From a virus (taxonomy: Duplodnaviria > Heunggongvirae > Uroviricota > Caudoviricetes), in the IMG/VR virus record IMGVR_UViG_3300028833_000063, positions 64,001-128,000 of that record: DNA of 64,000 bases, one strand, 5' to 3'. Below the pieces are notes generated by a model. The model was given only the letters and a program-made list of their open reading frames with translations, did no database searches and was not told where the DNA came from. Below are positions 818-28,500 of this stretch, in pieces. Position numbers and translations under genes: made by a program. The stretch's first letter is position 1. Each line of letters begins with the position of its first letter.

Positions 818-821
818 TTTT

Positions 822-3131: not shown

Positions 3132-3631
3132 TGAGTAAGATCGCAGGAATTTACTGGGATGATACCGCGGCTGCGCCCGGTATCTCCCTCTCTGTGTATT
3201 TTTCGGGATGTCATTTCCATTGCCCCGGATGTCATAATCCCGAAGCACAAGATTTTAACTATGGTGAAGAATATGGAGTAGATATTCGCCAAGAGATTAT
3301 GCAGAAGCTTAATAAAAATGGAGTAATGCGGACATTATGTATTCTCGGCGGTGAACCGTTAGCTGATGAAAATCTACAAGATGTAATGAGTTTATTAGGA
3401 TGGTGTAAATTAGATTATCCGAATTTAAAAATTTATTTATGGACAGGTTATACTATAGAAGAGCTAGAAAAACGCAATAATAAATCTGTTAATACTATTC
3501 TATATATGATAGATTACTTAATAGATGGTCGCTATGAACAAGACAAACGTGACACTACATTACCGCTTCGTGGCTCTTCTAATCAACGAATAATTAATAT
3601 GGAGAAATATCGTGAAGAAGGACATATATAA
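3131..3631 (+). CDS. nrdG: Anaerobic RNR activating enzyme (radical SAM)
   Basis: CxxxCxxC (GCHFHCPGCHN), LGGEP, IDGRY, LRGSSNQR; directly follows nrdD. Confidence 0.95.
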   Translation: MSKIAGIYWDDTAAAPGISLSVYFSGCHFHCPGCHNPEAQDFNYGEEYGVDIRQEIMQKLNKNGVMRTLCILGGEPLADENLQDVMSLLGWCKLDYPNLKIYLWTGYTIEELEKRNNKSVNTILYMIDYLIDGRYEQDKRDTTLPLRGSSNQRIINMEKYREEGHI

Positions 3632-7720: not shown

Positions 7721-7768
7721 AAAAATAAAGGCCCGGACGTTTAATAACGCCCGGGCTTATTTTTATTT
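7720..7768. terminator. Bidirectional intrinsic terminator between convergent blocks
   Basis: A-tract, gcccgg-acgtttaataacgc-ccgggc hairpin, T-tract. Confidence 0.75.
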
Positions 7769-7778
7769 GTGCAAATAA

Positions 7779-10700
7779 TTAAATAAGGTTAGGATCTTTT
7801 TCCTTGGCATTGTGCACGACAACCGATTCTGCTACATATGTATCATATGGTTCTACATCAATATTATAAACATCTGTATCAGTTAAATCAGTGCGTTCTA
7901 TAATCTTTTCTACAATGACATTTGAGGAATCTGTAGTAACTAGAGTATCACCTTCCTGCAATATGGTTGTTCTAACATGATGCTCTAAGAATGCTGTAAT
8001 AGCGTCTAAAGATTTCCAGCCTTCTATAGTTAATACAGGATGCGATTTTGTAAGTGTTAAAGTACGGTTATTTGAAAGAACTAAATCTACTATATTAGAC
8101 TTGTGTTCGAATAGCTATACTGACACAACACTAGCTTCTACATAAGATTTAGTATTTTCATCATAGGCTTTTATTAAAGTATTTACTGTTAGCTCTTCAA
8201 TCGGTATTTCAGAACCATCAGCGAGCTAAGTTAATGTACCTTTAATAAAGCATCCATCAGTAGGCGCCTCTGTATTGCCCTTACAAGCGTCTGCGCAAAC
8301 AGTATGGCAAGTTATGCTGCAATTAGCAGAACAGTTATTAGTGCATGCTACAGAGCAGCCGCTACCGCACTATATACTACACTATGTTGTGCATTGATCC
8401 TTGCAGCTACCATAGCATCCACCTATACAACTGTTATAACAATTTGTCTCGCAATTAGCAGAGCAACTATTAGAGCATTTTATAGTACAACCTGCTGTGC
8501 AGTTACCATCGCAGTTACCCGAACAATTACTAGTACATTTGGCGCCACATTTACTTTTACAAGTACCTGTACAAGCTCCACCGCAAGTATCAACATAGGT
8601 AGTACCTGAACTGGTATCTTCACTAGGTGTATAAGCGGTTGCTTGCTCAACAATCTTCGCCTATAAAGCTTCCATCTATGTTAGATTGATTTTTACGCTA
8701 TTACCATTTACTTTGTATAAGGTAATCGTCCCTTCTTTAGTATCTATGGCCACATCATAAAAACAATTTTCATAATATGAACTACTGTAAAACTTTTTGT
8801 TGCTACCATAAATACCACAATTCATTATTTTGCTATTAGATAATGTACCATTGAGTAATCCATCAGAATTTAGATCAAAATTACCCATACGCCCGTTGTC
8901 TACGGTCATATATCCATCTGTCGCACGGACGCTAAATGTAACTGCGTGTGAACTCTTTTTAGTTAACCTGGTACCAGTTGCAATATCTTCTGCAGGCTAT
9001 AAAGAAGTAGCCTCAGAATAAATATGGTTGACATATAGAGTACCTAATTCATCCTCCTCAACAGCTTTTTTTAAATTTTTATACCACTACGCTGTAGGGC
9101 TAGTCGATGAATTATAAACTATAGGAGAATTATTATATAATACTTCATTGCCACCAGGGTCAGTAACATATACATCAGTATAAGTATATAAAACTTCAGG
9201 ATCACCAGTTTCGTCACTTTCTTTATTAAGAATTGCTTGCTTATAAACTGTTTTTGTATTTTTAGGACTAACGGCCACTAAGGTAGGCTAATATTGTAAA
9301 ATTTTTTTCTAACTAATATCATTATCAGTTACTTCATAAGGCGATTCAGTACTGTATACATAATATATATTACCTTCTGAGTCTTCGTATGCATAATATG
9401 TCTTTTTATCATATACTACCTTTAAGGCATCGGTAACATTACCATTGGCCAAGTAAATACCACTATTATATTTAATATGATTAAATGTCTCCTCACCATT
9501 AAGAAATATTAACTAATCTCCAGAGAGAGCGTTATCAGTAATATTCCATCCGCCTATACGTCCACCAGATACGGAAAATAACTTTCCTTTTATATATAAA
9601 CTTCCACCATTATATAAAAATCCTGTTGTTTCACTATTAGGCCATGTACTTAAATCAGTATCAGAAGCTCCTACTCCCGCGCCAACACCAAAAATAGTGG
9701 TGCCATCAGATGCAGTAGATAAATACATATTATTAGCCCGAATACTCAAGTTCTAATTGACAGTAACAGTAGAACCACTAACGGTCATTACTGGATTGCT
9801 ATTAAGGTCATAGAATCCCAATCCATCTCCATTTGCAAAGAAATATCCATACCCCGCGCTGCTAGCTTTAAAGGCACTAGCATTTACTACTCCATTGATA
9901 TACAATCCATTTGAATTCAATAATAAATTCACATTTGAGCCAGTAATAAGTGATGGGTCGGTGCCAACATCAATGCCATTCAAATTCTTACCAATTGCAA
10001 ATATCGTGTTACCTAATTCAGTTTTCCATGCGCCATTTGCATATGTATCTGTCTGTAACTTAAAGTTATTACTGTTAATATATAAGTTCGCCAATGAACC
10101 AATATCAATACCATCGCTAGCGATACGTACATAAGAGCCTTTCTCTACATTACTATTACGTAAGTCAGAAGTGGACTAAGTGACATTAATACTGCCGCTA
10201 CCAACAGTAATACCATTATTATTCATTAGAATAGCATTAATCTTATTTCCACTTCTGGTCGCAAAACCAATACTATTCTATGTAAAGAGCGCGCCGACAA
10301 GACCATCAGAATCGCCAGTTATGTTATAAGTATGGCTATTCCATTTAGAGCTATCCCAAGTAGTACCACTAGTATGAGCAGTTTTACATTTATAATACTT
10401 GTTTTTATACATAACAATATCGCCAATGGCATAAGGTACTGACGGACGCCATTCAAATCCCGTCATCTCTCCAGCAGCAATTATAAGATGTTCTTGATTC
10501 ATTTCAATTGCAGTGCCGGTATTTGCCTATGTAGAAGAATAACCTAAAATTAAATGCTAATCATTTAATTCTACAGAAGCGCCCTAAACACCAGTAGAAG
10601 AAGTAGGATCAAAAATACGACCGCTAAATAAACGAATTCCATTACCAGCTCCTATATATACTCCTTCTTCCGCGCTAATATCTACAACAGAAGTATTAGC

Positions 10701-13700
10701 ATAACTACCAGTAGAAGCCTATAAAGTAATCCTACTACTAGATTTCATCAGAATTGTTGAAGATCCCATTTCTATCTTATAAGGAGTAATAAGTACTTTA
10801 CTTGAACTTGCATCTCCTTTTTTACTGCTAACTTCATCATAGGAAGCAGCAACTAAATTGATTCCTCCATAATCAGACCCGCTAACCGTTGTGGAACCAA
10901 TATTAATCTAAGTACCTCCAATATTTACAGCTTTATTTCCGACAATATTTACATTATCCTTCGCGGATATTTTAATATCGCCACCGCTTCCTATATCAAT
11001 TTCATTATGAGCTAAAATATTAACCGTGCCTTTTACTGCATCAACTTCTAAGCTCGCGCCTGTAATTGCGGCTAGGGTGCCATCATATGTTCTTGTGAAG
11101 CCATTTATAGTAGAACTCCCATTCGCATCTGAAGTTGCGACGTAACGTCCAACTTCTTTCCCGTGTTCATCTAACTCAATCCAAACATCACCAATTTTAT
11201 AACTATCAGGCTTAGTCTAACTATAAGTTACCTTTGGAGTTAATTCCGCTGCAATATTATATACAAATCCAGATAATATTTCTGAATTTTTTAAAGCAAG
11301 AGAGCCAACTCGATTGATAAGTTTACCGGAATCACTAAGAATCTCTCCTGCTTCTGTGAATAATTCTTTTAATTTATTTTTGACTACTTGACTACTATCA
11401 AAATGACTATCAAGATAGGCATCTAGTATGTTAGTATTATTATAAATAGCATTTTCAACTGTGCTAGAAGTCAAAGACAAATTACCATTAGCTAATGCCG
11501 CAAGTACTCCACCATTGCGCTGCATCGCGGCAGTCTGTGCAACAATATTAGAAAATAAATCTTCAAACTTTGTAGTATAATTCTATACTTCTACCGTATC
11601 TTCCCAAAACTTATCGAGTTTCATCGTTACAGCAGAAATATATCCGCTTACGTTTTCAAACTTTAAATCATTATCGTTAATATGAACAATCTAGTTTAGA
11701 CGATTATAAGCGGTACGTATAAATTCTGGATTAAGTACACTTAACTCTAAATTATAAGATACTTTGGGCCTTGCATTCTCATTCATAACTTTTATTGCAT
11801 CCAAGTAAATAGCAATATCTAAGTTGGATAGAGAATATGCAATAGTGATGTTGTTTGTATCAGTATCATTTTGAATATTGGTTGGCGCAAAAATTACTTC
11901 CGGTTTTAAAGTCACATAGTACCCAATTCCTTGCGGCGTCAGACCAGTAGAACGATCGTCTGATACAGTATAATAATCCTCGTATTCCTTTAATAATCTA
12001 TTATTTCTAATAATAGTAACGCTATCTTTCTTTAGCTTTAAGGTATTGAAATAAAATCTAGGATACTCGCGCACCCATGTGTAGCTTTGAGGAGTAGGAT
12101 GTCCGGATACTTTTCTAGTACCTATAAATGGGCTAGGAGTAGTGCCGCCGACGGTCTTTATTGTAGTCCAAGCATTGGGTATAATATTGCCCTGGCTATC
12201 ATATTGCGGAAATCCAATAAAAGATTTTGCTTCATCACCGGCAGTATTGGTAATTTTCTTTATTTTCTCGGTATCTACATCCACTATTGAAACTGTATAT
12301 TTATTTGTCTTTATAAAATTAAATGTATCATTATCTAATTCTTTTACGCCAGTAACTATTAACACAGGTTTTCTAGTGCTTCCAGATCTAACCCATCCTA
12401 ACTCACAGCCACTACCAATTCTATAACTAAAATACATACTATTCTATAATGCTGCAATCCATTCATCAGCGTTTTCCACGCTCTGATTGTTTTTAAGTTT
12501 CTCTTGAATTTCAGCAATAGTAGCTACATTAGAGGGATTACAGTAAACAAAACAAAGGTCATCTAAATGATTTGATACCGCCGCTAGGCGGTCACTAATA
12601 TCTATAACCAAATGCTAATTCATGCTACCTTCTGCATCGGCAGTATAAATCAGTGGCTCTTCACCCTCATAATATTTATTACCATCCCACATAAACTTTA
12701 AATATGCGGTTTGTCCCTATGTTATATTACTATTATTATATCCTATTGTTAGGGAGTCAGAAAATAAATCACCATAGTCATGATAATTCTCTGGATTCCA
12801 ATATCCTTCTCGCAGCGCTGGCCCCATCATGCGCTCAAACTTACTTATTAGAGCCTCTTTTCGCGCAATTAGTTCTTTTTCCTAATATAATAGGTTGGGA
12901 CACGCATCAGAAACTAAAGTAGGATTATTCTTATCACCCTCTAGATAATAAGTAAAATTCTCTACTTCTGCTGTTGCTTTATTTAATTCTGCCTAATCGT
13001 AGGCAAGGCGCTGTTCCCAAACTGCCTATACTTTATCATAAGCCAATGTTGGATTATAATATCCTCGAGCCCATAGCGTATCTCCTTCGTGCAACTACGG
13101 ATTATTATCTGTTGTAATATGCTCTACACGAATTACGTTATGATATTCATCTTCCGCGAAATTGTACTATGTAACAATATTGCTAAAACTCGCTTTGGCT
13201 CCTGTAAAGTTAGAAGTTCTATATAAACGCAGCGTCCCTCTTTCTAAACCTTCCCAACGAATATTTATATAAAAACCACGTTCAGTAGAAGATAAAACAG
13301 TACATGGCGTACCTTCAATAGGAATAACATTTGTCCCGCCAGTCAAAGCCGCGCGAAGTTTCCCGGCTTCTTGTTCTCTTTCCTAATCTAATCCAATCGC
13401 ATTTTCATATGTAGTTTTTCTAGCTTTTGCTTCGGTAAGCTGATTTTCTACAATGCGAATGCGTTCTTGAATTGCGGCTAAAGTAGTATTCAATGTATGC
13501 ATCTACTTTTCATATTCAGGAATTTCAGCATATTGCTCGTCAGAAATGGCCTAAATATCATGTAGATAGTCGAAGTTTAACAGATAATCTTCACCGCTTT
13601 TATTAGCATCCAAATCCATAATAGTAACAAGATTAGAATCGTAATCTACGGCGCTAACATACATTTTGGTAGTTACATTACTACTGTCAACCGTGCGCGT

Positions 13701-14633
13701 TACTGCGGAAGAAGAGTAAGGATAAGTTAAATCTATATGACCTTTTGCGTCATATAAATAATTGTTATAATAAATAACATGTCGGCCAGTAATCTAATAA
13801 TTGTCATTATAATCATATTCATAACGACAAAAAACACCAAATTGTTCCGCGATTGTCTGAGTTATGTTATAAATATTGCTTTCTTTCGTTTCAATAATAC
13901 GGCACTTTTCGCGCGTATTTTGAATCGCGCGAGGAAGCAATTTATCATTAGATTTAAGCTCCCATGCGGTTACGTATTCATCTTCATATAATACGCTACT
14001 TAACTTTTTTTGACTAGAAGCCTAAGTACTAAATGAAGACCAATCCATTTCTATACTGTAATCCCAGTTAGTCTTCCATTTTTTCTTTCCGTCTGTGCCT
14101 TTCTCCTTAAATACTATATCATTCCAAAACTGTATATTATTGAGCGGCTATTCTCCGCTCATACCTTTTTGTTCCCATTCTTCTAAAGCATCAATATAAT
14201 TTTGCTCAGATAGAGAAATTTTATATCCTATTTTCCCTAACTCATGGAAAGCTAAACCTTCAGCTTTTACAGTCAAGTCCACATTATCGGACGAATGGTC
14301 ATAGGTGACTTCTGTTACTAAAAATTCAAAGACCTTTTCATCATCTTTTACACCCTTATTAAAAATAACTTTCAATTTATGCATATTAGCCTCAAGCGGC
14401 TAATTCTGCAAATGCAACCACATCGGATTATCTACGCGGTTTGCGCCAAGCCAATAAAACTTAGGAATAGAAAAAGTAAATTCCTACGTTCCATCATCAC
14501 GCAATACTACTTCTGGCTCCTAAATTTGTCCTTTACAATCCATATCGGCCCACTTCAGGACAGATAAAAACCTGTCCTGAAGTGTCCAAATAGAAACCTC
14601 ATAGCTGCGCACAGTGTTCATATTCTCAGCCAT
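7779..14633 (-). CDS. Large tail-tip/host-specificity protein (~2,284 aa with TAG as sense): tail N-terminus, CBM5/12-like module, CxxxC repeat, C-terminal Hint domain
   Basis: ATG 14633 with AGGAGG RBS. Nine supplied fragments (7779, 8676, 9087, 9513, 9753, 10278, 11217, 11691, 14148) share one frame. Lies after the TMP and Dit genes. Not every codon was checked for TAA/TGA. Confidence 0.8.
7809..8252 (-). other. Hint (intein-like) domain, 148 aa, no endonuclease
   Basis: CFIKGT N-terminus, TKSHPV block B, VYNIDV...YVAESVVVHN C-terminus; the +1 residue is Ala. Confidence 0.9.
8283..8585 (-). repeat. Coding repeat: 26 Cys at exactly every fourth residue
   Basis: CGGACTGTCKSKCGAKCTSNCSGNCDGNCTAGCTIKCSNSCSANCETNCYNSCIGGCYGSCKDQCTT*CSI*CGSGCSVACTNNCSANCSITCHTVCADAC, where * is TAG. 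Confidence 0.9.
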
Positions 14634-14655: not shown

Positions 14656-16539
14656 TTATAAATACATATTTTTAAATTCAAAATGTAAATCCTGTAACCC
14701 ATTAGCAACGTCGTGCGTAATCAAATAAGCATAATCAGGATGTGAACTAGTCCAAGCTTGAACTTGGTAATTCTTATCTAATACATTTCTTTCATCTAAA
14801 ATTAAGTAGTTACTCCGCACCATATCTCCAACATTTTCTTCTTGTGTTGTAGTATAATTTTCACCTGATACAGAGTTTTTAACCTATGTTTTTAATGAGG
14901 TACTGCCGCTAGTAATACTAACTTTACTAATATCACGATATGTAAATTTCCCTATTGCCAAACCAGTTTTACCATCAAAGGTAAATTGGGCAGAGAACGG
15001 TTCATCATTATTATCGCATAATAGAGTAGACATGCCTTCTTTTAAATCCGTGCGCACACTTGTGCTTTGAATAGTGCTATTACCGCCTGTACTATCATAC
15101 TTATTAATGAGCATGTTTGCCCATGCGCGAACAACCGGATGCCTAATCGTATCACGAATAGCTTCACGTACATTCAGCCAAGCACCACCAACTGCCATAA
15201 TATCAGTATTACTAAATATTTCTAATACCTAATTATAACTTAGCCAGAAAGTTGGTAATGTAAACTTGAATGTACGAGTTCCAACAGACTTAAGAGTTAT
15301 TGTATTATATTTATTTCCACTTCCAGATGAATGATTATTCAAAGGAGTAATAATATAATAAGCACCACTCGTTCCCGCCGCGCGCATTTGAGGTATAAGT
15401 GAGAAGCGTAATTTTACAGGAGATGGAGCTGTCCCGGCATAGTATAAGTTTGCAGGAGTCTTATATGGTAAACTAATTCCCTCCACGGAAGTACCTGCGC
15501 CAGAAAGCTCTGCGCCGCCGATTTTCCCGCCAACCTAATTTCCATTGTTCTTATACGAAATTACCGCACCTCTATAATAACAGGTAACATTCTGAGTAGA
15601 AGTTGTTCCGGTAGACGCATTTGTAACAGCACGAGGCTCAACGGTAGTAAAATATGCAGAACGTAACTAAGGTGTAATCGCTTCTGAGCTTATTGCCTAA
15701 TTATACTATGCTTCTGTAATTTCTACAGGAATGCGTGACCATACTTCATAACTTACAGAAGCATAGACTCCACCGCCTAGGAATACATTAATACGAGTTG
15801 TACTTCCTAATGGGATATGATCTTCATATATAATTTTAAGAGCATCAGGAGATTCCCTAACACGAACAACTTTCCCATTAGCGTCTACCCAATTATCTTC
15901 ATAATATCCTTCTAGCGTATTCTATGTACCAAGTACATTTTTTATAGAATACCAGAAAGGTTCATCCATTACAAATTCAAGATCAATTTCACCACGGTAG
16001 ATGGTTGTATAAGTGGAATAAGTTGTTGTTGTCACGGTTTCCCCTGCGTTAGTATCACCAACTGCAAATGGCACTTCTACTTCCTGTTTAAAGGCAAGTA
16101 AATGTAGCCGCGGCGGGGCCGCTATTCGCGCCATAATCGCGCGATTAGGATGCTCTGCCATTATTAGTTCTCGTATTGAACCGGCCCTAAACCAGCGCTT
16201 GAAATCATCCAATTCTACTTGAGTCATAGCATCAGTTGCTAATGTTATACTCAAAGTATTCTAATGAAAATAAGTTCCCCAGTAAAATTGCCCCTAAATT
16301 GTATCATATACAGAAGTTAAGTCTTCAAATTCTGCATATCCTTCACGTTCCATACGGTCACCGCTTGTATATGCTAATACATTGAAATCTTCAATATTTT
16401 TCCCGCCATAGGAAAAACTAATAAAAGAACGTTGCATGAAGGGCAAGTAAGATTGCCCATCATGCGTTGCTTGATAAACCTGGGTACGAGGTGACGTCGA
16501 AGACGCCACCTCATTACCCACTAATTTTGCTATTGCCAT
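14656..16539 (-). CDS. Distal tail (Dit)-like protein, 627 aa with TAG as sense
   Basis: Fragments 16294, 15922, 15229 and 14884 share a frame; ends FKNMYL-TAA; lies between the TMP and tail-tip genes. Confidence 0.75.
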
Positions 16540-16546
16540 ACTCCTT

Positions 16547-19500
16547 TTACCTCCTTATACTATTTGTTGCGCCTGTTTTACGAGCAATTCTCATCATCTC
16601 GTTTAGAGCTTGTTCGCCTGCGCGACGAGCATCATAGTCATTAGCAATTTGTTTAACTTCCATATTGAGTTCAACCTTCTCGATAACAGTAGAGTTGTCT
16701 TCAATAGGAGCTATACCGTTAACGGAATTATTAATTCCATCGTAGCCCTCGTTGTAGGACTTAAGTAGAGAGATGAGAGAATTTGGACGGTTAGAGAGAA
16801 TATTGTCACGGAGAACTTTGGTTTGAGAAGCAGTAAAGACTGTTTCAGTACCACGTTCACCAAGTTCGTAGATACCATGATTTACGTAACCGCCAGAAGC
16901 TGCTTTAGTTCCTCCAGCTGGTTTTTTCAGCCAATCTAAAACGGTACTTGCCGCATTCGCCATCGCACTTATACCGGTATTTATTAGAGATGTTACAGGG
17001 CTATTAGATATCTCTTTTTTGGAATAATCTGATACTGGATTGGGTTTATTAGATATATCCATTGGGTTTGTGCTAATAGAATTAGAATTATTGGCATTAG
17101 TAGAATTTGAAGGTTTCGCGGTTGAGCCACCTGAACTATTAGTTGGAGCAACTTTTTCCTAATAATCACACTGAGTGCAATAAATAAAACCATTACTGCC
17201 ATTCACATTAAGAGAGTGTACCTATAAACTGCCATATTCTTTATGCCCATCTGCATATATTTTTACATGTTTATGTCCACTCTTACCTTGTGATTCATTG
17301 TATTCTCGTTTAACGGCTCCGTGCCCCGACTTATTAGTTTTACCGGAGTCACCTCCACCACCGCCAGAACCTCCGGATGCTGGTGCAGCCGTTGTTGGCG
17401 CTGCCGCTGGTGCAGCAGTCTATTCCGCAGCCTTCTTAGCAGCTTCCGCCGCAGCTTTATCGGCAGCATACTTAGCTCTCGCACTCGCGGAAACCTTTGT
17501 TAAATCTCCATGCTCTTGATACTCAGAATAGAATAAATCCTTATAGGTACCGTTCTTATCATAGTTATTACCGAATTCCTTCTTCATGGCTTCATCGAAT
17601 ATCCTATAATCATTATCTTTCATTTGTTCACGATTCATAGTGACCATTAAAGCGACATTTTCTTTAATATCTTTCGCGGTAACACCATTCTCACCGATAC
17701 CAGTTTTTGCGGCGGCTAAATCTTCTCTATAAGAAGTCCACTGCTCGGCAGCGAATAGTTGTTCATTAATAGCTTTCTTACTAGCTAATTCCGAACTAGC
17801 CCAAAATTCAGAATTTCCGTTTGTAATGAAAGAAACAATCTTCTCAGAGGATTCCTGCATTACTGCGTAGACGTTACCCCACAGCAATCCATATTCTTTC
17901 TAATATTCTAATGTTTCTGTCATTATCTCGATCTAAGAATCCATACGCTCGATTTCTAGGTCAGAAGCGGCCTAAATAGCATCAATCTGCTATTGCTATA
18001 AATTAAAGTATCTATCACGTTCAGAAGAGTCAATTTCGGAGCGGAGATTAGCGATATCTTGCGCACTACTTCCAGACCGCTGTAGAATTGCTAAACGGCG
18101 CTTCTACTAATTAAGTGAGTTATCCGTTTCTTGATTCTCATACATCTGACGCTCATTATTAAGCGCATCAGTTAAGCCATCAATATACTTCTAAGTAGAT
18201 TCCTCTAACTTATCACGCTCATCTTGCAATGTATCAATTTCACGCTAGCGCATATCTACGATAGCATCAAGTACGGCATCTTCGACCTCCATCTGATTGT
18301 CTCGAATTTCTTCGAATATATCATTTTGGTCAGCTTGAAGTTTTAGTAAATCATCTTCGCCCTCTTTAATGGAATCCCATAAGCTTTGAGTAGTTTCCTT
18401 ATATTCATCAATCCTATCCCAGAAAGCCTTTGTGGCATCACTATAGAAAGATTGACGTTCTTCATCGGTAACTTTCCCATCGTTATCTCCATCCATCTTA
18501 ATTTCGCCGCCATCGTTATACTTCATATAGTCGCCATAACCTGCAGCAATAAGTCTATTATACTTCTCTTCATCAGTATAATTGGCTTTTCCATAGGAAT
18601 CGAAACCAGCTAAATCAGTTAGCCATTCCATTGCTCCTTTCTAGAAGAACATTTGTCCTTCATTATTAAAACTAATGAGCTTTCCGAATGGACTCTTTTC
18701 TAGAGCTTCAACTCTCTAATCATAATATGCCTAGCGACTTAGATTAAGTCGCTCTTGCGCATCAATCTAATCACGTAATGCTTCAAGAGAACGTTTCTGA
18801 CTAGCATAATAATGATTACCATTTGCATTCCAGTCAGACTACAACTTAGAACGTAAGGTTTCTTCATGTGTAATTTCTTTCTCAAGCTAGGCAATCTTCT
18901 GCATTAGGTTATACCAGCGTTCAACTGTATCAATCCAAATAGAAGGATCAACGACTTTGGATTTGTCTCCTCCACCGCCGCCTCCACCGCCACCACCGGC
19001 GCCGGCGAGATCAGATATAGAAGCGCCCTTGAGAGATTCCCACATTGCGCGAAGTTGTTTTAAAGCAGCTAATGCCGCGGATGCAGATGCCATTGCAGGG
19101 CCAGTGTTACCAGTTGCGAATGCGACTGCATTCTTTTCAGAGGTAACGGCTTTGCCGCGGCCATTGGACATTCCTTTCTTTAGAAGTTGCTCGGTTTGTA
19201 AATGGTTGAAAACAATTGCATCATCTGCAAGATCAACCATTTCTGCACCATTTTGTCCTGCGACAAAATAGCGCCCGTTGGAGACTACAAGTTCGGGGCC
19301 GAGTTCACCCATAAGGGTTCCTTTAGCTTTAGCAAGTCCGATATTACCTGTTGCACCAAATCCGTCAATAGGGAAAGGTACTTTTCCACGGCTGCCATCA
19401 TCCGTACCCATGCCACCAGGATATTCTCTTCCGCCACTTTTGCCACTAGTTGTATAATTAGTATGAACATTTATGGTTATATTCTTAGAGACAACAGAAC

Positions 19501-22500
19501 CCAATAATGTTACTACTTGCCTTAAAGCACTAAGAGCCTAATCTACTTGAGCCTTAATAGTCGCTTCAGCGCCTTCATTAATTTTATCAAGCATAGCTTG
19601 AACAGAATCAAGATCCTTCTCTGCTGTATCTTTATCAACCTACAACTCAGATTTCTGCTTTACTTTCTATTGAAGTTCTTCAATTTTCTCATCTAATTCT
19701 TTTAGAGTATTTAAAGCAGCATTACTATTAAAATCTATTTTAGTACCATTTAATTCAGTAAGATCTTCAGCAAGTTCATCTACGCCTTGTCCTTCTGCAT
19801 CAAATGTTTTACCGGATTTTTTACTTTCTTGTTTTTTCTAAGGTTCCTAATCAGGAACTTCTGGTATCTATAATTGTTTAATTGAATCAACTATTGTTGC
19901 GATTTTTCTAGCTAAAGTATCCCAAAAAGAACTTGTTGCTAGATTCTGTAAAGCCGTTAAAGCTGAAGTAAAGGATTGCTCTATAGTTGTAAGTTTATTA
20001 GTATCTAATTTCTCAATAGCTTCAGGTAGTGAAGAGAAAGCTTTAGTAATTGCTTGAGTAATAGTATCAGTTAAAGATTCATCAATTCCCATTGCTTCTC
20101 GTATTTTAGATTTTACCAATTCAGCATCAAAATTACCATCAGTTGTAATATCATCGGCATCTAATGATAAACTATAGTCATTGCCAATATCAATTTCAAC
20201 TTTACCTTCACCATTTGGTTTTAATGCTTTAATAATTTCATCATTAGCTTTATTTAAAACTGAATTAGCTTCTCGTCTAAACTTGGGATCTTTAGAGGGA
20301 TCTTCAACAGTTTCGCCATCTTTTTTTACCTCTGCTTTCACTTTCATATGAATGCCAAAAGTCTAATAGATCCAAGATTCTTTTGTTGGGAATTTTATTG
20401 GCTTACCTTCTTTATCTTTAGCCATATTTTTAGTAACATGAGCATACATATCATCTAATAAGTCAGATTGAGTTCTTATATCCTTTTTCGGCGTATAATT
20501 CTCTAATCCTGGGATTGATTTATAATCATCGCCTAAATCCCAAGTAACTTTACCATCTTTACCGACAGTAGCTTTCATCGTTACATGCGTTTTAAGTTCT
20601 TGCCCATAAGTAATTTCAGCTGTAGTAGTTCCTGTTTTTTCATTATAATTCCCAATTTTAGCTTTAGAATCAATACCCTACTAATCTTTTAATATAGTTT
20701 TCTAAATCGTTTTATACCAATTATCACTACCTTCATAATACTTTTTCCCGTCAGGGCCTTCAACATAATCACCTTTCTTATCATGTTTAATCAAAGTATT
20801 ATGACGAAGTTTAATAATTTCAGTTACTGGTAATTCTGTAGTTGCTCCTTCGCCATTTAAGTATTTCTAAATTAATTCAGAAATTTCTTGACGAGCTTTA
20901 GTAGCATCTTTTTGTCCAGCTTTTGCCTAATACTACTTTAATACATCTTTAGCTTGATCGGTACTCCAATCAGCAACTTCAACCACAACTCCATTAGAGA
21001 TAGTATAAGTAATATCTCCAATATCAATAGTAAAGCCATCAACTAATTCTCCAAATTTTCCGCTATTAAGCATCTATTGAAGACTTCCACCAATATCATC
21101 AAGATTCCAATCGGTGCTAATTGCTGCCTAGTATAATGCGTCTAAAATCTAAGCATCCGCTTTCGACCACTGAGCCGCATCACGCTCTAACCAATCTCGC
21201 CACGTCATGCCATTAATATTAATACCATCTACTACTTCTTTTAACTTATCATTTGTCTCATATAATTCATCAAATTTATTTAACCATGTCTAATATTGTT
21301 CTGTAAGAGCATCTAACTTTCCATCTCCATCAGTGTCAACGGCTATATCTGGTAAATCAATTGTTATATCTTCACCGGCAATATCGCCAAGAGATTCCAT
21401 TGCAACAATTAATTCAAGCATAGCAATCATGCCATCTAATGCATGAATCTAAGCATCAGCGACTGCATCAATGCCCGCATCAATATTGTTTTCAAAATCT
21501 TTTCCGCCTTTAGCAAGATTAATACCAAGTGCACCAATATTAACCATCATTTCACCAGTATCAACAGCAGTTAATGTATTGATACCGTGCATGATTGCAT
21601 CGGAAGCAGATGTTAAAGAGCCATCTAGAGTAATAGCATCTCCTTCAATGGTTTTACCAATAGTCATAGGCTATTTCATAATTCCTGCCATGTTATTAAT
21701 TTCATTAATAACATTGTAAAAATCTTCATAACCCATATAACCAGTACGAGTACGCTTTACTCCGCCAGCTTTTAAGTCTCTAGTATTTTTAACTTTATAA
21801 GCATCTTTAATGGTCTTTAAAGCTTTTGTCCAATTTTTAGCATAATTTAATGGATTATTCTAACCAGCAGGAATTTTATTATCCATAAAATTGAAAGAAT
21901 CATCCTCAGTGGCGCTTCGAACGGCAACTATTTCTTTAGCAACTTCTAGCTCTGCTTTATATTGTTCTAATCTGGCTTCAGAAATTCTTTCATCCGCGGC
22001 TAATGTATTATCCCGCATCCCATTAATTGTTTTTGTTAAGTATGCAATACGATTTAATAATGCAGGAGTTGTAGCAAAATGCTCATTAGATTTCTTCAAA
22101 GATTCTGCTAATTTATCAAATACAATTTTCCCTTGCAAAGCATCAACTTTAGCCAATGCCTAATATAATTCAATTGCAGATTGCTAAGATAATTTTAATC
22201 CTTCAGTAGTCTATTCAAAATGAAGGTTATTAATACCTAAATTATCTGCCATTTTAATTAAGTTAGAAACATCTGTATTAGATAGCCCACCTCCAATGCC
22301 AGAAACAATAGCATCGGTATAAGATTTAAGTATGTTTAATACTGTATCTTTTACTTCTTCAAGTCCATTGCCAAGCTCTAAACCGGCTTCTTGTGCTGCG
22401 CTCTCTAATGTCTATGCTATACCTAATAAATTAGCATTGTCGCCAATCTTAAGGATACCATCTTCTAAAGAAGCTCCCCACATATTCAATTCTGCATTAA

Positions 22501-25500
22501 CAATATCTGTTAAACTATAAGCCTATTCTTCGGCAATATGAAGCTATTCAGCTCTCTTAATACCTGCTTCAAGAGCCTAATCTTTCGTAAAGCCTTCATA
22601 TTCTTGAATATCTAATAATAAACGCTTTTGCGCTGCATCTAAAGCTTTTATATATTTAGGAGCAGTTGAGCCAAACTATTTTGAAGCTTGTTCATAAAGC
22701 TGTGCCACATAAGATTCTACATCCTCAACAATTTCACCAGCTTCAGTCATCTAGGCAAACGTAGCTACAACATTTTTTGCTCCATTTTTAAAGTCTGAAG
22801 CACTAAAAGTTACACCATTTATAGTTCCCCAGCCGTCGCCTGGCCCAAAAGCTTTATCCATTAAAAGATCAGGAATAATTTTACGATTTCCAAGATTTCT
22901 AACATTTCCATTATATCCATCAAAATTAAATTCAACTGTATTAATAGCTTCCTCTAATTTTGTCCATAGCTAACTTAAATTAAGCCAATCTCCAGCTTTT
23001 GCGCTTTCAATTTGCTTAATTTCTTCAACTATAGCATCTTCTGCATTTTTATTTAACTCAATAAGTCCATCATTATATGCTTTAAATGCACTTGTATATT
23101 CCTACGTGTTTTTAACCTGATCTAAATTGTCTCCCCAAATACTTTCTGCAAATGCATTCCAATCAGTAATACGAATATTACCAAAACCATCACGCATAAC
23201 AGTATCAGAATACTTAGTCATATATTCTTCAAAGCTGATATTATACTTAGTTAAGAGATTACCAAAATCAGCATAAGACATGCCTGCGCCATTTTTTAAT
23301 GCTTCAGTAATATCAATATTACGCTAATCTTCCGCAGTAAGCATTTCTGCATAGACGTCATTTAAGCCAGCAACTGTTGCACCAGCAGCTGTACGCATTT
23401 TATCATAAATTGCATGATAAGCTTGAACCATATTAAAGGTATCATTTACAACGCCATTTGCATCTGCCATTCCTAATTCAGGGCTAGATAAAATTTTTCT
23501 TAGCTCGCCAGTGACTACTGAACCTTTGGAAACCTCTGACAATTGTTTAATAACATTACTATAATTATCAAATGGCGCGGAATAAATTTTAGCTAGCTCT
23601 TCTTCAGATATATTAGGATATAAGTCTTTGGCTTTCTCCATTGCGGCTTGGCCGCCAGCCTCAAAAGTAGAAATCCATGATTCAAGTGTATTTTCATCTG
23701 CTTCTTGTCCATATTTTTCTAGAGCGACTTTCGCTAAACTAGTCTTAAAGTCTGACCGATTCTTAGCAGTTCGCTCACCAAGCAAGTATTCACTTATTTT
23801 TAAACCTTCTTGAGCAGTATTTAGGAGAGAGTCAAGGAACCATTGGCCTAGTTTATCTGCAGTATCATTAGCATCAGAAATAGTATCTTCCGCTGCACTA
23901 CTTAATTCTTCTCCAATAGTAGATATATCCATCTCTGAATCAAGTAACTATATCTAGTTATCGGCATCCTTATAAAAATAATCATTAAATTTACTTAACT
24001 ACTCAGCATATTCTGCTAACTTTTGAATATCTTCTTCAGAACTTGCATTATCACGAATATCTTCTAATTTGCCTACTTCTTCACGGACACTATCTTTATA
24101 TTTCTTAACATATCCTTCACGAAGCGCGGCTATTTGTTCCATGGTGCCATAAAACTTTCCATCAATAAACTGTAAGTCTGTTAATTCTAAATTCTAGAAT
24201 TTTCCAGCTGCATCAAAATATTGTTTAGTATCGGATAGCCATGTTTGAGCAGCAGCAATATCCATACCAGATGAAGACGCGGAAAGGTTGTTCTCGGTAT
24301 TTTTCCAGGCAGAGGTAAATTCATCCTAAAGTGCCTAGAGACGTAAAGAAATACTATTAACATAAAGCTCAGATAAAGTGTCAAGACTATTTGCAATTTT
24401 TTCAGCATCATCTGAAGATAAAGTTTCTTCATCTTGCGCTGCACGTATTGTTGCCGCAGCTTTTTCTAAACCTTCCTAGGAAACCCCATTCGTAGCAATA
24501 GTTTTTTCTATAAAGGCCGCAGCGGCGCCATCTAAGCCAATTATAGTCTTAATTAGACTAACGGCTTCTTTAGCATATTGTGTTGCACGAGAACCTATTC
24601 CGGTACCATATATTGCTAATTTTTCATATTGATCTTGTAAATTATTGAAAAGATTTTCATCGCCGAGAGTGAATCGCGCTTGACCAAAGCTTAATGACTA
24701 CCTAATCGCAGATGCTATTGCAGAATCCTAGTTTAAAAAATGTTCGGCCAAACGATCATTAATATTAGTTTCATAATCGGTATAATATTTTTTAATAGCA
24801 TCTTGCACTTCAGAAGGCATTTTTGTTCCAAATTCTTTAATAATATCTTCAGCATTATAATATGTCTAATCATTAAACATTGTTTCAAATGCTTTTTGCC
24901 TATCTTCAGTCATAGAATTATACCACTGTTCAGCTAAGGTGCCAAGCCCCTCTTCGCTGAATATACCTGCATAACTCTATAAATAAGTCTTTAAATCAAT
25001 ATCTTTTCCCTGCTCAGTTTTTATAAACTCTTGATACTGTTTATATATTTTATCAGTTATAATGCCTAGCATCGTTCCAGAATTAGCTATAGCCAAATTT
25101 AAATTATCAGCCTACCCTTCTAAGAACGAATTAATCTATAATTTTTCAGCAGAAATCTAAAGTAAATTTTCTGAATTATATTCAGCTAATTTTTTATATC
25201 CATCGCCAAGACTATCTTCAAGTTGGTCTATCTGTTTATATAATCCATATTTCGCATCGCGCCATTTATTTAAAGTATCGGTTAATTTCTTTTGAGCATT
25301 AAAAATATCCTAATCATTATCTGAATCAAGTGCAGTTTTCATTTCAGAAATCGCATTATTGATTTCATCAACTGCTTGTAACTAGGTTTCTTCAGTCACT
25401 TCAGGATTTATTATTTGCTATAAAACATTTAACAATGTTGGGAGATCTTCAGTTAAAACTGTATCATCACTATTTTCTATAAAAGGTTGTTGATAAAGAT

Positions 25501-28500
25501 TGTTTAAAGAACTTATAAATTTATTGATATCTATAGTTTGCCCAAAATCATTCGGATTTTCCCAAAATTGTGTTTCATCAAACCAATTACCAAGCTCAGT
25601 CTGTTTTAGCGCAGTATATGCTAGCACTTTGGCAAAATCATAATTATTTCCACTAATTGACTCAGCCATTTCGGTTAACTTAAAACCTTCATAGCCACGA
25701 TACTTTTTAAGCTCCTACATATAATTTGAATCGCTAAACGCGTCAATATCGGACATTCCAACAGTAGATTCAGGACCTGTAATTGCACCTTCTGCCACAG
25801 TAATAGTACGCTTTAAACTTTTTTTAGCATCTTTTAAATCCTATTCCTTCGCTGCTTTCGCTCTTTCAACCTCAGCTTTCGCAGCATCATATGCTGCCTA
25901 AGCACTCTTTTTTCTTGCTTCTGTTAAGGTATCAGTTAATGCAGATTCATTTAAAATTGCATTTCCAGCATTATCGAAAGATGCAATAAGTTCTGGGAAC
26001 TTAGAAGTTAAATCTTCAACCGCGGACTAATATGCTTCGGCGGATTCAGCACTCTCGTACCTTTTTTCTTTTAACTCTTCATATTTTTCTGAAGTACTTT
26101 CTAATGTTTTATACTCATTCTTACTGACTTTCGCCGCATCAGACAGTTCCTAAGACTGCTTAGTTAAACGTTCTAACCTTTCACTGTCATCTTCTATCAT
26201 AGTATCAATGGCATTTATTACCGTAATAATACCGCTAACAATAGCCATTATACTACCGCCACTAGAAAATATCTTTAAGGCGCCGCTAACTAGCTATAAG
26301 GAGCCAGCCATAGTCTTTCCGGCTTGACTAGTCTAATCAAATACCCCAGATAACATTGACATTGCGCCTGCAACATTACGAATTGTACTAGCATTTTTAC
26401 CATTAAAAAAGTTAAGAGCATTTCCTAATTTTTGTTTCATGGAAAGCTTTTCTTGAGCTTTCGTGGCAGTTTCTAGTGCTTGAGCTTCCTCATCAAGAGC
26501 CTCTATGTTTTTGAAATTAGTCTCAGCTACATGCTCTTTAATACGCTTAGCATTTTCCTAAGCTTCAGCTTCTTCTGTAGCGGCTTCTGCGGCTTCGGCC
26601 TCGGCCTCGGCTAGCTCTTCTGCAATTCTCGCAGCTTCGGCCATCGCAGTGTCCTTATTAGATTCTTCGAAATCTTTATAAAGCTGTTCTAAATATAACT
26701 ATTCATAGTAATCATAACTTGGCTATTCTTTAGACGGGTTCTGCTCTTCAGAAGATGCTTCAGTTTCTTCATTTGTAGTATTCTACTATTGAATTAACTC
26801 CGCAGCCTTATTCGCTGCTTCTTCAGCTTTTTCAGCAGATTCTTTTGCCTGTTCGGCGGATTCTTGCGCTTTCGCAGCAGCCTATTCGGCTATACTACCC
26901 TAAGCATCTATATTAGCATTTTTTGTTTGCTGTTCTAAAACCTATGCTTCACTCGCAGATTCTACAGCAGATTCTGTAGCAGGTTTTTCAAGAGCGTCAA
27001 TACGCGCTTGTAAATTTTTCTCGCCAGTATTCCAAGAAACCTAAGTCGCGCCTTGTGGTCCATAAATCTAATTATACTATTTACGTACATCAGAGAACTC
27101 TTTTTCAGCACCCTTATCTCCGCTATTAATTCTCTAACGTAAAGCTAATAATTCTTTTAAATATTCAATTTGAGATTTAATAGTTTGAATTTCTGTGCTG
27201 TTATCACTATCTGTAGTTTCTTGTTTAGCTTCAGAGTATTCTTCTGCTGCTTCAGTTGCTTCTTCATATGCTTCAGTTACCTATTCCAGACTAGAAGCAT
27301 CTGTATCACTATTTTCATTAGTTTGTATATCTGCTGCTTTTTCTTGAGTTGCTTTCCATATCTATAACTATTTCTATACATAATCTTCTCGAGACATTCC
27401 AACCATAGGCGCTGCAAATTCTGCCTCATCCTCATATTTCCGGCGCATTTCAGCTTCTTCTGGAGATTCTTTCTATATTCCGATATCTTGTAATGTTAAC
27501 TTTTCAATAATACCTTTATATGAATCTTGTAATTCTGGTGCTAAATTTTTAACTTGTTCAAGTAATGCTTGTTTAAGTAATTCTAATCCTTCAGGAGTCT
27601 TTGTCAATTCACTATCAAATTCTGCAATAATAGCTTTTCCAGCTTCAGCCGCGGCTTTTAATGCTTCAAGTTTACCCTCATCAATACCTTCTTTACTGCC
27701 TAGCATTAAGAATTTACCATCTTGAATGCCATAAATAGAAGGAGAAGAAACTCCCATACTAGTTCCAAGAGTATCTACAATGGCCTCTCCTGCAGCAGAC
27801 ACACTAGTCGTAGCTTCTGGAAGCCCTTCTTGCACACCACTCGCAACGCCAGCCATAAGTTGTTTTCCAGTTTCATCGGAATCAGTGGTACTATTTGCTA
27901 ATTCTTGTTGTATATCTTCCGTCCATCCGTCGTCTGCTTCTTCAAATTCATCAAGTGGAAGATAATTCTTAAGTGTTAACCCCATAAGAGACTTCGGATT
28001 AAGTAACTCTGAAGTCGAATCTGGCATACCGAGCATAGCTCCAGCAATAAGCTGCCTTCCTCCTCCTTGCTCAGCTACGCCCCAATTCTCAGCTAAATTT
28101 GAATAAAAACTAAGTATTTTTTCTATTTCAGAGGTGTCACTATTAGAAAAATCAATACTAGACATTGAAGCTTTTAAAGAATTAAGTAATACTTCGCCAA
28201 AATCATTATCGAATAGTCCTGTAATATCTTTCTCTAGAATTTCTTGCCATAGTTCATCTATTCCCCAATCTGAACTAGTTAAAGCCGCATGTAATCTATC
28301 TAAATTTATCGCTTCTAACGCATCTTGGCCTACCAATTCTTCGCCATGTGCTCCGAAAGCCACGCCAGGAACATTATTCTTTATATAATTTTCAATTTCT
28401 TTTTTACTTGTGGGCCCAGCCTCTGCGTGATTATCAAATATAAAAGTACGTTTTGGATCTAAGCCATTTTGCGCATCAAATGCCGCCTATAATTCTTCTT

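What the first reader, a model, noticed from the sequence alone, without database searches (positions are those of the whole stretch)
7779..8585. Tail-tip protein ends in 26 Cys spaced every fourth residue followed by a non-splicing Hint domain
Seen: a 101-aa perfect CxxxC repeat with mostly small flanking residues, a short linker, a 148-aa Hint domain (C1, TxxH, terminal HN), then Ala and an 8-aa tail. Established: canonical splicing needs Cys, Ser or Thr at +1; Ala fits bacterial intein-like domains that cleave or ligate instead. Cys-every-fourth repeats resemble radical-SAM-modified CXXX-repeat peptides. Inference: the Hint domain self-cleaves (like the S74 intramolecular chaperones of tailspikes) or attaches the new C-terminus to a partner, exposing a metal-binding or crosslinked Cys rod at the adsorption device.
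Basis: partly seen in the sequence, partly recalled or inferred. Interest (0 to 1): 0.75.

Follow-up and report, generated by a model that had tools for sequence, protein, structure and literature searches.

The report
Cysteine-ladder, self-cutting phage tail tip
A large gut or rumen-type phage that reads TAG as glutamine ends its 2284-residue tail-tip fibre in 26 cysteines spaced every fourth residue plus an intact intein-like (Hint) domain, and it also encodes the radical-SAM enzyme family that goes with such cysteine repeats, so the tip is probably enzymatically cross-linked and then trimmed by its own end domain; no paper I could search describes this.

Summary
Window 7779-14633 (-) is one 2284-codon gene, open only if TAG is read as Gln. 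It ends in a 101-aa CXXX repeat with 26 Cys, a 10-aa linker, a 148-aa Hint domain (C1, TxxH, HN), then Ala and 8 residues.

TAG=Gln is supported by a tRNA(CUA) in the genome and by Gln at TAG positions in unrecoded homologues. The N-terminus folds like a tail hub (Tal/gp27/VgrG), and the gene follows a 5351-aa tape-measure protein.

The 188-kb genome encodes a radical SAM/SPASM enzyme about 109 kb away. Its best match by far is TIGR04115, 'peptide maturase, CXXX-repeat target family' (E 2e-100), and a conserved small partner gene sits beside it. The tail protein holds the only CXXX run in the genome. In IMG/VR, 7 of 7 records with diverse CXXX repeats carry this maturase, against 0 of 77 controls.

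Orthologous tail proteins end in CXXX only, CXXX+Hint, Hint only or neither, so the Hint is a removable cap.

Best reading: an enzyme-cross-linked Cys ladder at the fibre tip whose Hint cap cuts itself off. Both chemical steps are inferred.

This scan has met CXXX/rSAM fibre systems before on other DNA. New here are the fusion to the hub fibre, the Hint cap and the unlinked maturase.

The parts
7779..14633 (-). Tail hub / central-fibre gene: 2284 codons, 39 TAG read as Gln, stop TAA at 7779-7781
   Evidence: Follows the tape-measure gene. Large orthologous family, 669 hits.
13284..14633 (-). N-terminal 450 aa: conserved hub (Tal/gp27/VgrG-like) domain followed by a long helix
   Evidence: AF2 mean pLDDT 70. 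Foldseek matches the monocin tip, VgrG, the phi812 and 80alpha baseplate hubs, NF5 Tal and T4 gp27 at prob ~1.0, but TM is only 0.2-0.3. One orthologue carries PF06605.
10353..10454 (-). CBM_5_12 carbohydrate-binding module, aa 1394-1427
   Evidence: Pfam 31.3 bits, cut-off 26.2
8283..8585 (-). CXXX repeat: 26 Cys at period 4, aa 2017-2117; the presumed rSAM substrate
   Evidence: AF2 pLDDT below 56, so no confident unmodified fold. Weak sub-threshold match to TIGR04117.
8253..8282 (-). 10-aa linker (aa 2118-2127) ending in Gly at position -1 of the Hint
   Evidence: Gly is the commonest -1 residue in 80 cap Hints.
7809..8252 (-). Hint (BIL/mini-intein-like) domain, aa 2128-2275: Cys1, T2195xxH2198, H2274-N2275
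7782..7808 (-). 9-aa tail after the Hint: Ala at +1, then 8 residues including two Lys
14656..16539 (-). 627-aa protein between the tape measure and the hub fibre, in the distal-tail position by gene order only
   Evidence: Syntenic 612-670-aa genes in relatives.
16547..32602 (-). 5351-aa tape-measure-type protein with 127 TAG
   Evidence: PF10145 PhageMin_Tail, 97.7 bits. Syntenic giants of 4537 and 5568 aa in relatives.
7730..7756 (.). GC-rich hairpin flanked by A and T runs between the convergent genes; a likely two-way terminator
   Evidence: read directly from the sequence; not tested further

Best explanation
The gene encodes the tail hub (Tal-type) protein of a TAG-to-Gln recoded phage of about 188 kb, extended into a long central fibre. 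Its far end is a 26-rung Cys ladder. Late in infection the phage's own radical SAM/SPASM maturase and its small partner, encoded about 109 kb away and themselves full of TAG codons, most likely modify this ladder. By analogy with PapB and CrpC the product would be thioether cross-links, giving a compact tip that resists reduction and proteases. The C-terminal Hint domain then undergoes an N-S acyl shift at Gly2127/Cys2128 and the thioester is resolved, most simply by hydrolysis. This removes the 157-residue cap and leaves an end like that of the Hint-less orthologues. Shown here: the anatomy, the recoding, the hub identity, the presence and specificity of the maturase family, its co-occurrence with the repeat, and the intact Hint catalytic residues and fold. 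Inferred: that the maturase acts on this protein, what bond it makes, that the Hint cleaves, and the order of the two steps.
For: Maturase and partner:
- The maturase P0006 (430 aa, G000 181767-183059) matches TIGR04115 at E 2.3e-100, 336.6 bits, model positions 2-359 of 359. The next family, PapB, scores 147 bits. It has CX3CX2C at residue 33 and SPASM Cys motifs at 278 and 345.
- The 92-aa ORF just upstream has TIGR04116 as its only NCBIfam match, full length though weak. Its homologues sit directly upstream of the rSAM in relatives and in unrelated phages.

Link to the repeat:
- Only one CXXX run, and only one Cys-rich ORF, exists in all six frames of the genome.
- In IMG/VR, 7 of 7 records with diverse CXXX repeats hold a TIGR04115 match of at least 100 bits, against 0 of 77 simple-repeat records (Fisher 2e-10).
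- Within this lineage, 18 near-complete genomes have neither repeat nor maturase. G123 keeps the flanking genes but has neither.
- A T4-like contig has a CXXX protein with two Hint domains followed two genes later by a 634-aa rSAM.
- The maturase has 8 in-frame TAG, like the structural genes, whereas NrdD and NrdG have none.

Hint domain:
- C1, the block-B His and the terminal HN are invariant or nearly so in 43 relatives.
- pLDDT is 91-98. The best structural matches are BIL domains: 6y75 at TMt 0.90 and 2lwy at 0.83.
- BIL domains lacking a +1 nucleophile give mainly cleaved products (PMC7664689).
- Orthologues 90-92% identical at the N-terminus end right after the repeat.

Precedents:
- PapB makes Cys-Asp/Glu thioethers (PMC9413430).
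- CrpC installs thioethers on a repeat-containing Cys-rich protein (PMC13692751).
Against: - No biochemical data exist for any TIGR04115 member, so the bond type is a guess. The X positions are mostly G, S and T, with no fixed acidic acceptor of the kind PapB and CrpC use.
- The maturase scores 13 bits under NCBIfam's curated cut-off and is not adjacent to its presumed target.
- The three CXXX-bearing relatives in IMG/VR are fragments without the maturase, so co-occurrence inside this lineage rests on one complete genome plus a contig-length match.
- The diversity threshold used to call 'true' repeats was set after seeing the data.
- Hint cleavage is inferred from conserved residues only. The Lys-rich tail (67 of 80 caps) hints at a role beyond simple hydrolysis.
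- AF2 gives no confident structure for the repeat.
Confidence: 0.6

Rival explanations
1. The Hint does not simply fall off. It uses its thioester to ligate. Either the Gly2127 carbonyl is joined to the amine freed by Asn cyclisation (BIL-type splicing without a side-chain nucleophile), or it is joined to a Lys side chain in the short tail or on another virion or host-surface protein, as proposed for ciliate BIL-ubiquitin-like proteins.
For: [quoted passage not shown] 67 of 80 C-terminal cap Hints, and all 14 that follow a CXXX repeat, keep a Lys in a tail of typically 4-7 residues. The +1 residue is Ala in 31 and Lys in 14.
Against: BIL domains give mostly cleaved products (PMC7664689). Hint-less orthologues work with a free end. 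The Lys enrichment may reflect shared ancestry of the caps. The tail sequence is otherwise unconserved.
Confidence: 0.2
2. The Cys ladder is not enzymatically cross-linked. It binds metal ions or Fe-S, or forms disulfides after lysis, and the rSAM enzyme has another target or another role.
For: Dense Cys with small neighbours is typical of metal-binding proteins. The maturase is about 109 kb from the tail gene. There is no conserved acceptor residue in the repeat. The unmodified repeat has no predicted fold.
Against: No other CXXX run or Cys-rich ORF exists in the genome for the enzyme to act on. The enzyme family and the repeat co-occur tightly across unrelated phages, usually side by side. 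Relatives without the repeat also lack the enzyme.
Confidence: 0.1
3. The Hint is a passenger: a decayed or selfish intein-like insert near the 3' end. It is either inactive and stays on the virion, or it is removed with no benefit to the phage.
For: Hint domains come and go among close orthologues: 8 CXXX+Hint, 11 Hint only and 28 CXXX only among 121. Inteins also invade the rSAM gene itself in relatives (P0339 and P0386).
Against: All catalytic residues are intact and conserved across 43 relatives. There is no homing endonuclease. The same cap ends many unrelated fibre proteins, with a characteristic Gly at -1 and a short Lys-bearing tail. That pattern points to selection for a function at protein ends, not homing into conserved sites.
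Confidence: 0.08
4. The TAG codons are real stops, and the repeat and Hint are not part of the tail protein.
For: Under table 11 the frame is broken 39 times.
Against: The genome carries a tRNA with anticodon CUA. TAG positions in the rSAM align with Gln in unrecoded homologues. TAG is the commonest Gln codon of the gene. Homologues align across the TAG positions. Relatives are also found only with TAG=Q.
Confidence: 0.02

Closest known systems
NCBIfam/Pfam CXXX-repeat radical SAM system: TIGR04115 maturase, TIGR04116 partner, TIGR04117 and PF27846 (tSAM_targ_Cxxx_rpt) targets
   Same: Cys at every fourth residue in long runs. A SPASM radical SAM enzyme whose best match is TIGR04115 over its full length. 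A ~90-aa partner gene directly upstream of the enzyme. Orthologues of the tail protein carry precomputed PF27846 hits.
   Different: The family is defined by comparative genomics only, and I found no biochemistry for it. Here the target is not a small peptide next to the enzyme. It is the last 5% of a 2284-residue virion protein about 109 kb away, followed by a Hint domain. The enzyme scores just under the curated cut-off, and the repeat scores well below TIGR04117's.
PapB/PapA (freyrasin) and CrpC/CrpA: thioether-forming rSAM/SPASM enzymes
   Same: Same enzyme superfamily: PapB is the second-best match at 147 bits and TIGR04463 (CrpC's family) scores 57 bits. The substrates have repeated Cys motifs. 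CrpC shows that a protein-sized repeat substrate can be cross-linked (PMC13692751; PMC9413430).
   Different: PapB and CrpC use Cys-X3-Asp/Glu or C-X-X-Q/D motifs. The phage repeats have mostly G, S and T between the cysteines and no fixed acceptor. Neither known system is viral or structural.
Bacterial intein-like (BIL) domains, e.g. C. thermocellum BIL (2LWY) and Tetrahymena BUBL BIL2 (6Y75)
   Same: HINT fold with Cys1, block-B His and terminal His-Asn. No +1 nucleophile, no endonuclease, and a location at the end of a variable surface protein. These are the best structural matches.
   Different: By sequence the nearest solved relatives are DnaB mini-inteins. Type-specific BIL motifs were not tested. 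This domain is a strictly C-terminal cap with a 9-residue tail on a phage fibre.
Intramolecular chaperone auto-processing domains of tailspikes and fibres (peptidase S74: endosialidases, T5 pb1)
   Same: A C-terminal domain of a phage fibre that is expected to be cut off by itself after doing its job. This is analogy only.
   Different: The fold and chemistry are unrelated (S74 uses a Ser-Lys dyad). No S74 family matched.
Tal / gp27 / VgrG-type tail hub proteins with C-terminal fibre extensions (e.g. 80alpha Tal, NF5 Tal, monocin tip)
   Same: The N-terminal fold class and the position after the tape-measure gene.
   Different: No sequence-level family match. TM-scores are low (0.2-0.3). The C-terminal Cys ladder and Hint are not features of the solved examples.

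Membership tests
HINT superfamily (Hedgehog/intein fold) | N-terminal nucleophile (Cys/Ser 1), block-B T-x-x-H, C-terminal His-Asn | tested here: met
   C2128, T2195/H2198 and H2274-N2275. C1 is invariant and H and HN are conserved in at least 90% of 43 relatives.
HINT superfamily (Hedgehog/intein fold) | Family model score over the curated threshold, and the HINT fold | tested here: met
   PF14890 scores 38.1 against a 35.8 cut-off on the whole protein. TIGR01445 scores 29.5 against 24.5, and TIGR01443 scores 18.8 against 15.6. pLDDT is 91-98 and Foldseek prob is 1.00 to BILs and inteins.
Canonical class-1 intein | Cys, Ser or Thr at +1 of the C-extein | tested here: not met
   +1 is Ala2276. 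Only 8 of 80 related caps have C, S or T at +1.
Canonical class-1 intein | Inserted within a conserved host protein whose intein-less homologues are continuous across the site | tested here: not met
   The C-extein is 9 unconserved residues. Hint-less orthologues simply end after the repeat.
Bacterial intein-like (BIL) domain | HINT domain without a +1 nucleophile or endonuclease, in a variable secreted or surface protein | tested here: met
Bacterial intein-like (BIL) domain | Auto-cleavage at the N and/or C junction | not testable with these tools
   Needs expression and MS. The property is documented for BILs (PMC7664689).
Bacterial intein-like (BIL) domain | Type A or B specific sequence motifs (Amitai 2003) | not tested
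   No BIL-type profile was available. Pfam Hint_2 scores only 13.6 bits.
CXXX-repeat rSAM target (TIGR04117 / PF27846) | Long run of Cys at every fourth residue | tested here: met
   26 Cys in a perfect period of 4
CXXX-repeat rSAM target (TIGR04117 / PF27846) | Score over the family model cut-off | tested here: not met
   TIGR04117 scores 13.7 bits against a 50 cut-off. PF27846 is not in the local Pfam copy; orthologues P0005, P0155 and others carry precomputed PF27846 hits.
CXXX-repeat rSAM target (TIGR04117 / PF27846) | Cognate TIGR04115-type maturase in the same genome | tested here: met
   P0006, 336.6 bits, full length, in the same 188-kb record. It is not adjacent, being about 109 kb away.
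TIGR04115 rSAM maturase (for P0006, outside the window) | CX3CX2C radical SAM motif plus SPASM auxiliary-cluster cysteines | tested here: met
   CX3CX2C at residue 33, CX13GX4C at 278, CX2CX5CX2C at 345, plus C376 and C386
TIGR04115 rSAM maturase (for P0006, outside the window) | Score at or above NCBIfam's curated cut-off (350 bits) | tested here: not met
   336.6 bits. It is the best family by 190 bits, and homologues are named 'CXXX-repeat target family' by JGI.
Peptidase S74 intramolecular chaperone | Match to the S74 / Peptidase_S74 model | tested here: not met
   No such family appears among Pfam matches at E up to 0.1
Tal / gp27-like tail hub | gp27/VgrG-like N-terminal fold and a gene position after the tape measure | tested here: met
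   Foldseek hits to hubs, Tal and VgrG at prob ~1.0 but TM 0.2-0.3. PF10145 lies in the 5351-aa protein two genes upstream.

The most novel reading that the evidence does not exclude
Phages use a dedicated radical-SAM maturase to staple a cysteine ladder at the distal end of their central tail fibre. This would be a RiPP-type modification applied to a virion protein. A Hint domain would act as a built-in, self-removing 'follower' that holds the ladder accessible or in register for the enzyme. It would then either leave a defined C-terminus or ligate it through the conserved Lys. If so, a widespread class of receptor-binding tips depends on two post-translational chemistries never described for viruses.
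Probability: 0.4. Interest if true: 0.85.

Novelty: new variant of a known kind. Interest (0 to 1): 0.68.

Why it matters
Host recognition by phages is thought to rest on ordinary folded tip domains, sometimes helped by chaperones. An enzyme-stapled cysteine ladder on a tail fibre would be a new kind of virion maturation. It would give the orphan CXXX-repeat radical-SAM family a natural substrate that can be purified from virions. It would also give a concrete function to the many Hint 'caps' on phage and surface proteins. The system is directly testable: co-express three genes and weigh the product. The modular tips (ladder, ladder+Hint, Hint, none) within one orthologous fibre family offer a natural experiment on host-range evolution in gut and rumen phages.

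Tried and rejected
- Relatives found through the rSAM (G001-G003) are fragments lacking the tail gene, so they say nothing on co-occurrence.
- The 12-Cys DNA pattern scan of IMG/VR mostly returned simple tandem repeats read in a Cys frame. These were reused as negative controls.
- Pairing fragments by sample (3300032030: CXXX fragment at 54% completeness plus rSAM fragment at 48%; 3300028591: 22% plus 78%) is only suggestive, because several related phages share those samples.
- G123, from the sample of rSAM fragment G002, overlaps the rSAM-flanking region, so it is a different phage. It has neither repeat nor maturase.
- PF27846 is not in the local Pfam copy.
- Pfam gave nothing for the large ORFs upstream of the rSAM cassette. 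PHROGs gave nothing for the tail protein beyond the Hint.
- Literature searches for 'CXXX repeat' with radical SAM, TIGR04115, ranthipeptide with bacteriophage, radical SAM with tail fiber, and Hint domain with tail fiber found no description of this arrangement. The paper I recalled as defining these families (Haft & Basu 2011) was not held under the id I tried.
- Mycobacteriophage tblastn hits to the repeat were not followed up and are probably compositional.
- I considered and rejected a crAss-like identity: the locus has a tape-measure/hub layout.
- I considered and rejected a true intein: no +1 nucleophile and no extein continuity.
Full report
WHAT IS THERE

The finding lies at the 3' end of a minus-strand gene. 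Under the standard code the frame is cut into short pieces. With TAG read as a sense codon it becomes one ORF, window 14633 to 7779, of 2284 residues with 39 in-frame TAG and a single TAA stop.

- 26 Cys at every fourth position, aa 2017-2117 (101 aa, nt 8283-8585), with mostly S, G, T, N and A between them.
- A 10-residue linker.
- A 148-residue Hint domain from Cys2128 to His2274-Asn2275, with T2195-x-x-H2198.
- Ala2276 and eight more residues.

The repeat is not a DNA tandem repeat. TRF finds only 2.2 copies of one 12-nt unit, and TGC and TGT codons are mixed. Cys is 0.55% of the rest of the protein, so chance can be dismissed.

IS TAG REALLY READ THROUGH?

The window is part of a 188,358-bp IMG/VR virus record rated complete. 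Four lines of evidence support TAG=Gln:
- The genome carries a tRNA with anticodon CUA at 183,528-183,615.
- In the phage's radical SAM gene, three of the eight TAG positions align with Gln in most of seven unrecoded homologues: 5, 4 and 6 of 7.
- TAG is the commonest Gln codon of the tail gene, 39 of 72.
- Relatives of the protein in public data are likewise recovered only with TAG=Q.

Early-type genes in the window (NrdD, NrdG, dUTPase) have no TAG, whereas most of the large ORFs of the virion-gene block do.

WHAT PROTEIN IS IT?

The gene order is a 5351-aa protein with a PhageMin_Tail tape-measure domain, then a 627-aa protein, then this gene. An AF2 model of the N-terminal 450 residues (mean pLDDT 70) matches tail hubs: the monocin tip, VgrG, the phi812 and 80alpha baseplate hubs, NF5 tail-associated lysin and T4 gp27. 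Probability is about 1, but TM-scores are low, 0.2-0.3. A CBM5/12 module sits at aa 1394-1427. 'Tail-tip protein' is thus supported: it is a Tal-type hub extended into a central fibre, and the Cys ladder is at its distal end.

THE HINT DOMAIN

- Pfam Intein_splicing passes its threshold, as do the TIGR intein N- and C-terminal models.
- In an alignment of 43 relatives, C1 is invariant, and the block-B His-Pro, a G-W motif and the terminal H-N are at least 90% conserved.
- AF2 predicts the domain at pLDDT 91-98.
- The best structural matches are the BIL2 domain of the Tetrahymena BUBL locus (6y75, TM 0.90 on the target) and the Clostridium thermocellum BIL (2lwy), then DnaB, RecA and gp41-1 mini-inteins and Hedgehog.
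- By sequence the nearest solved relatives are DnaB mini-inteins, E 2e-8.

It is not a canonical intein. The +1 residue is Ala, the 'C-extein' is nine unconserved residues, there is no endonuclease, and orthologues without the Hint simply end after the repeat.

Among 80 related Hint domains that cap a protein's C-terminus:
- +1 is Ala in 31, Lys in 14, and Cys, Ser or Thr in only 8.
- -1 is Gly in 38.
- The tail is typically 4-7 residues.
- 67 tails contain a Lys, including all 14 that follow a CXXX repeat.

BIL domains without a +1 nucleophile give mainly N- and C-cleaved products (PMC7664689). Self-removal is therefore the simplest expectation. The conserved Lys and the BUBL likeness keep ligation open as a rival.

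THE MATURASE

A scan of the genome with Radical_SAM found two hits. One is NrdG, inside the window. The other is a 430-codon gene at 181,767-183,059 with 8 in-frame TAG.

- Its best NCBIfam match is TIGR04115, 'radical SAM peptide maturase, CXXX-repeat target family': E 2.3e-100, 336.6 bits, model positions 2-359 of 359. That is 13 bits under the curated cut-off and 190 bits above the next family, PapB.
- It has the CX3CX2C motif and SPASM cysteine motifs.
- The 92-aa ORF that overlaps its start has a single, weak but full-length match to TIGR04116, the 'CXXX repeat peptide modification system protein'.
- Homologues of that ORF lie directly upstream of the rSAM gene in close relatives and, after iteration, in unrelated phages.
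- The tail protein holds the only run of four or more period-4 cysteines, and the only Cys-rich real ORF, in all six frames of the genome.

CO-OCCURRENCE

A 12-Cys DNA pattern scan of IMG/VR returned 120 loci, most of them simple tandem repeats. Of the 84 records that could be searched, 7 have diverse, small-residue CXXX repeats. All 7 hold a TIGR04115 match of at least 100 bits, six of them at 298 bits or more, and usually within a few kb of the repeat. None of the 77 simple-repeat records does (Fisher 2e-10). The diversity threshold was chosen after seeing the data, although the two groups also separate on composition.

Within the phage's own lineage I examined 49 IMG/VR records carrying the tail N-terminal domain:
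- 18 near-complete genomes have neither a CXXX run nor the maturase.
- The three records with CXXX runs are 22-54% fragments without the maturase.
- Fragments carrying an 81-84% identical maturase come from the same metagenomes, but lack the tail gene.
- One relative, G123, keeps the genes flanking the maturase cassette but has neither maturase nor repeat.

Two further points link the pair. A 149,928-bp contig length is shared by a CXXX-ending orthologue (P0204, on ERZ914847 scaffold_11) and by an rSAM 70% identical to ours (P0286). This suggests one contig with both genes, though I did not see the record name on the rSAM side. In an unrelated T4-like 243-kb contig, a protein with a CXXX repeat and two Hint domains is followed two genes later by a 634-aa radical SAM protein.

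MODULARITY

The tail protein belongs to a large orthologous family: 669 hits, and contigs up to about 190 kb. Among the best 120 plus this one, 28 end in a CXXX repeat, 8 in CXXX+Hint, 11 in Hint alone and 74 in neither. The closest orthologues, 90-92% identical at the N-terminus, have a CXXX repeat and no Hint. In syntenic relatives the CXXX+Hint module is a separate 300-340-aa gene right after a 1736-1901-aa fibre gene. The ladder and the Hint are therefore independent, exchangeable tip modules, and here both are fused to the hub fibre.

MECHANISM, WITH ITS LIMITS

I conclude that the ladder is most likely the substrate of the phage's own maturase, and that the Hint most likely removes itself.

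The chemistry is unknown. PapB makes Cys-to-Asp/Glu thioethers in CX3D/E motifs (PMC9413430) and can also use a C-terminal carboxylate (PMC12373016). CrpC installs thioethers on a protein with repeated C-X-X-Q/D motifs (PMC13692751). In 2229 phage CXXX units from 54 proteins, however, the X positions are mainly G, S and T, with no fixed acidic acceptor. A different acceptor, or even a different reaction, is possible. AF2 gives no confident fold for the unmodified repeat, which fits a segment that needs modification or assembly but proves nothing. I could not model a trimer.

NOVELTY

The CXXX-repeat system is catalogued in NCBIfam and Pfam (PF27846, tSAM_targ_Cxxx_rpt) but, as far as I could search, not studied. 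No paper I found links it to phage fibres or to Hint caps.

This scan has noted CXXX/rSAM cassettes in phage tail-fibre modules many times on other DNA, and twice a small Cys-repeat/Hint protein next to its maturase. I treated these notes as leads and tested the claims on this genome. The variant here has three new points: fusion to a 2284-residue Tal-type hub fibre, a Hint cap recently gained relative to its closest orthologues, and a maturase cassette unlinked from its target in a TAG-recoded genome.

Noticed in passing
whole window; tRNA at G000:C1:183528-183615 (outside the window): TAG is recoded to Gln. The suppressor tRNA(CUA) lies about 470 nt downstream of the rSAM cassette. ARAGORN gives it as 88 nt, which is long for a Gln-type tRNA. 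Several early-type genes (NrdD 714-3131, NrdG 3131-3631, dUTPase 5794-6588) are TAG-free, while most of the large ORFs of the virion-gene block have 1-3 TAG per 100 codons.
   Followed up: partly
window 16547-32602 (-): A 5351-aa protein with 127 TAG and a PhageMin_Tail domain at aa 445-657. This is an exceptionally long tape-measure-type protein. Syntenic relatives have 4537 and 5568 aa.
   Followed up: partly
P0339 (719 aa) and P0386 (628 aa), homologues of the rSAM maturase: In some relatives the maturase gene itself carries an intein with a LAGLIDADG domain (precomputed PF14890, PF14528 and PF07591). Hint-type elements therefore circulate in these phages in both the homing and the cap form.
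   Followed up: no
L001:652-1059 (G000 181002-181406) and window 10353-10454: A 135-aa protein with two CBM5/12 modules lies just upstream of the maturase partner gene, and the tail protein has one CBM5/12 module. Upstream of it are 1633-aa and 650-aa TAG-containing ORFs with no family match, possibly a second fibre set.
   Followed up: partly
proteins P0010, P0008, P0011, P0024 and others: Many hits carry 3-7 Hint domains in direct tandem, with junctions of the type HN-K-G-G-x-C-F. Ciliate BUBL-like proteins with ubiquitin after each Hint are also among the hits.
   Followed up: no
window 4216-5250 (+): A 344-codon ORF with 11 TAG. Its C-terminal part looks GIY-YIG-like, and the syntenic gene in L195 carries PF01541. 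It is probably a homing endonuclease-type gene beside the dUTPase.
   Followed up: no
Mycobacterium phages Che8, Tweety, DeadP and others, genes 54-60: tblastn of the Cys-repeat region hits hypothetical proteins of cluster-F-type mycobacteriophages at 25-34% identity. This may be compositional or a tetrapeptide-repeat likeness.
   Followed up: no
P0003, P0004, P0015, P0016, P0025 (1600-1800 aa): Proteins with 140-170 CXXX units (about 600-700 residues of Cys ladder) after Listeria-Bacteroides repeat domains. They end in a short conserved G-x-A-x-K-type tail and have no Hint.
   Followed up: no
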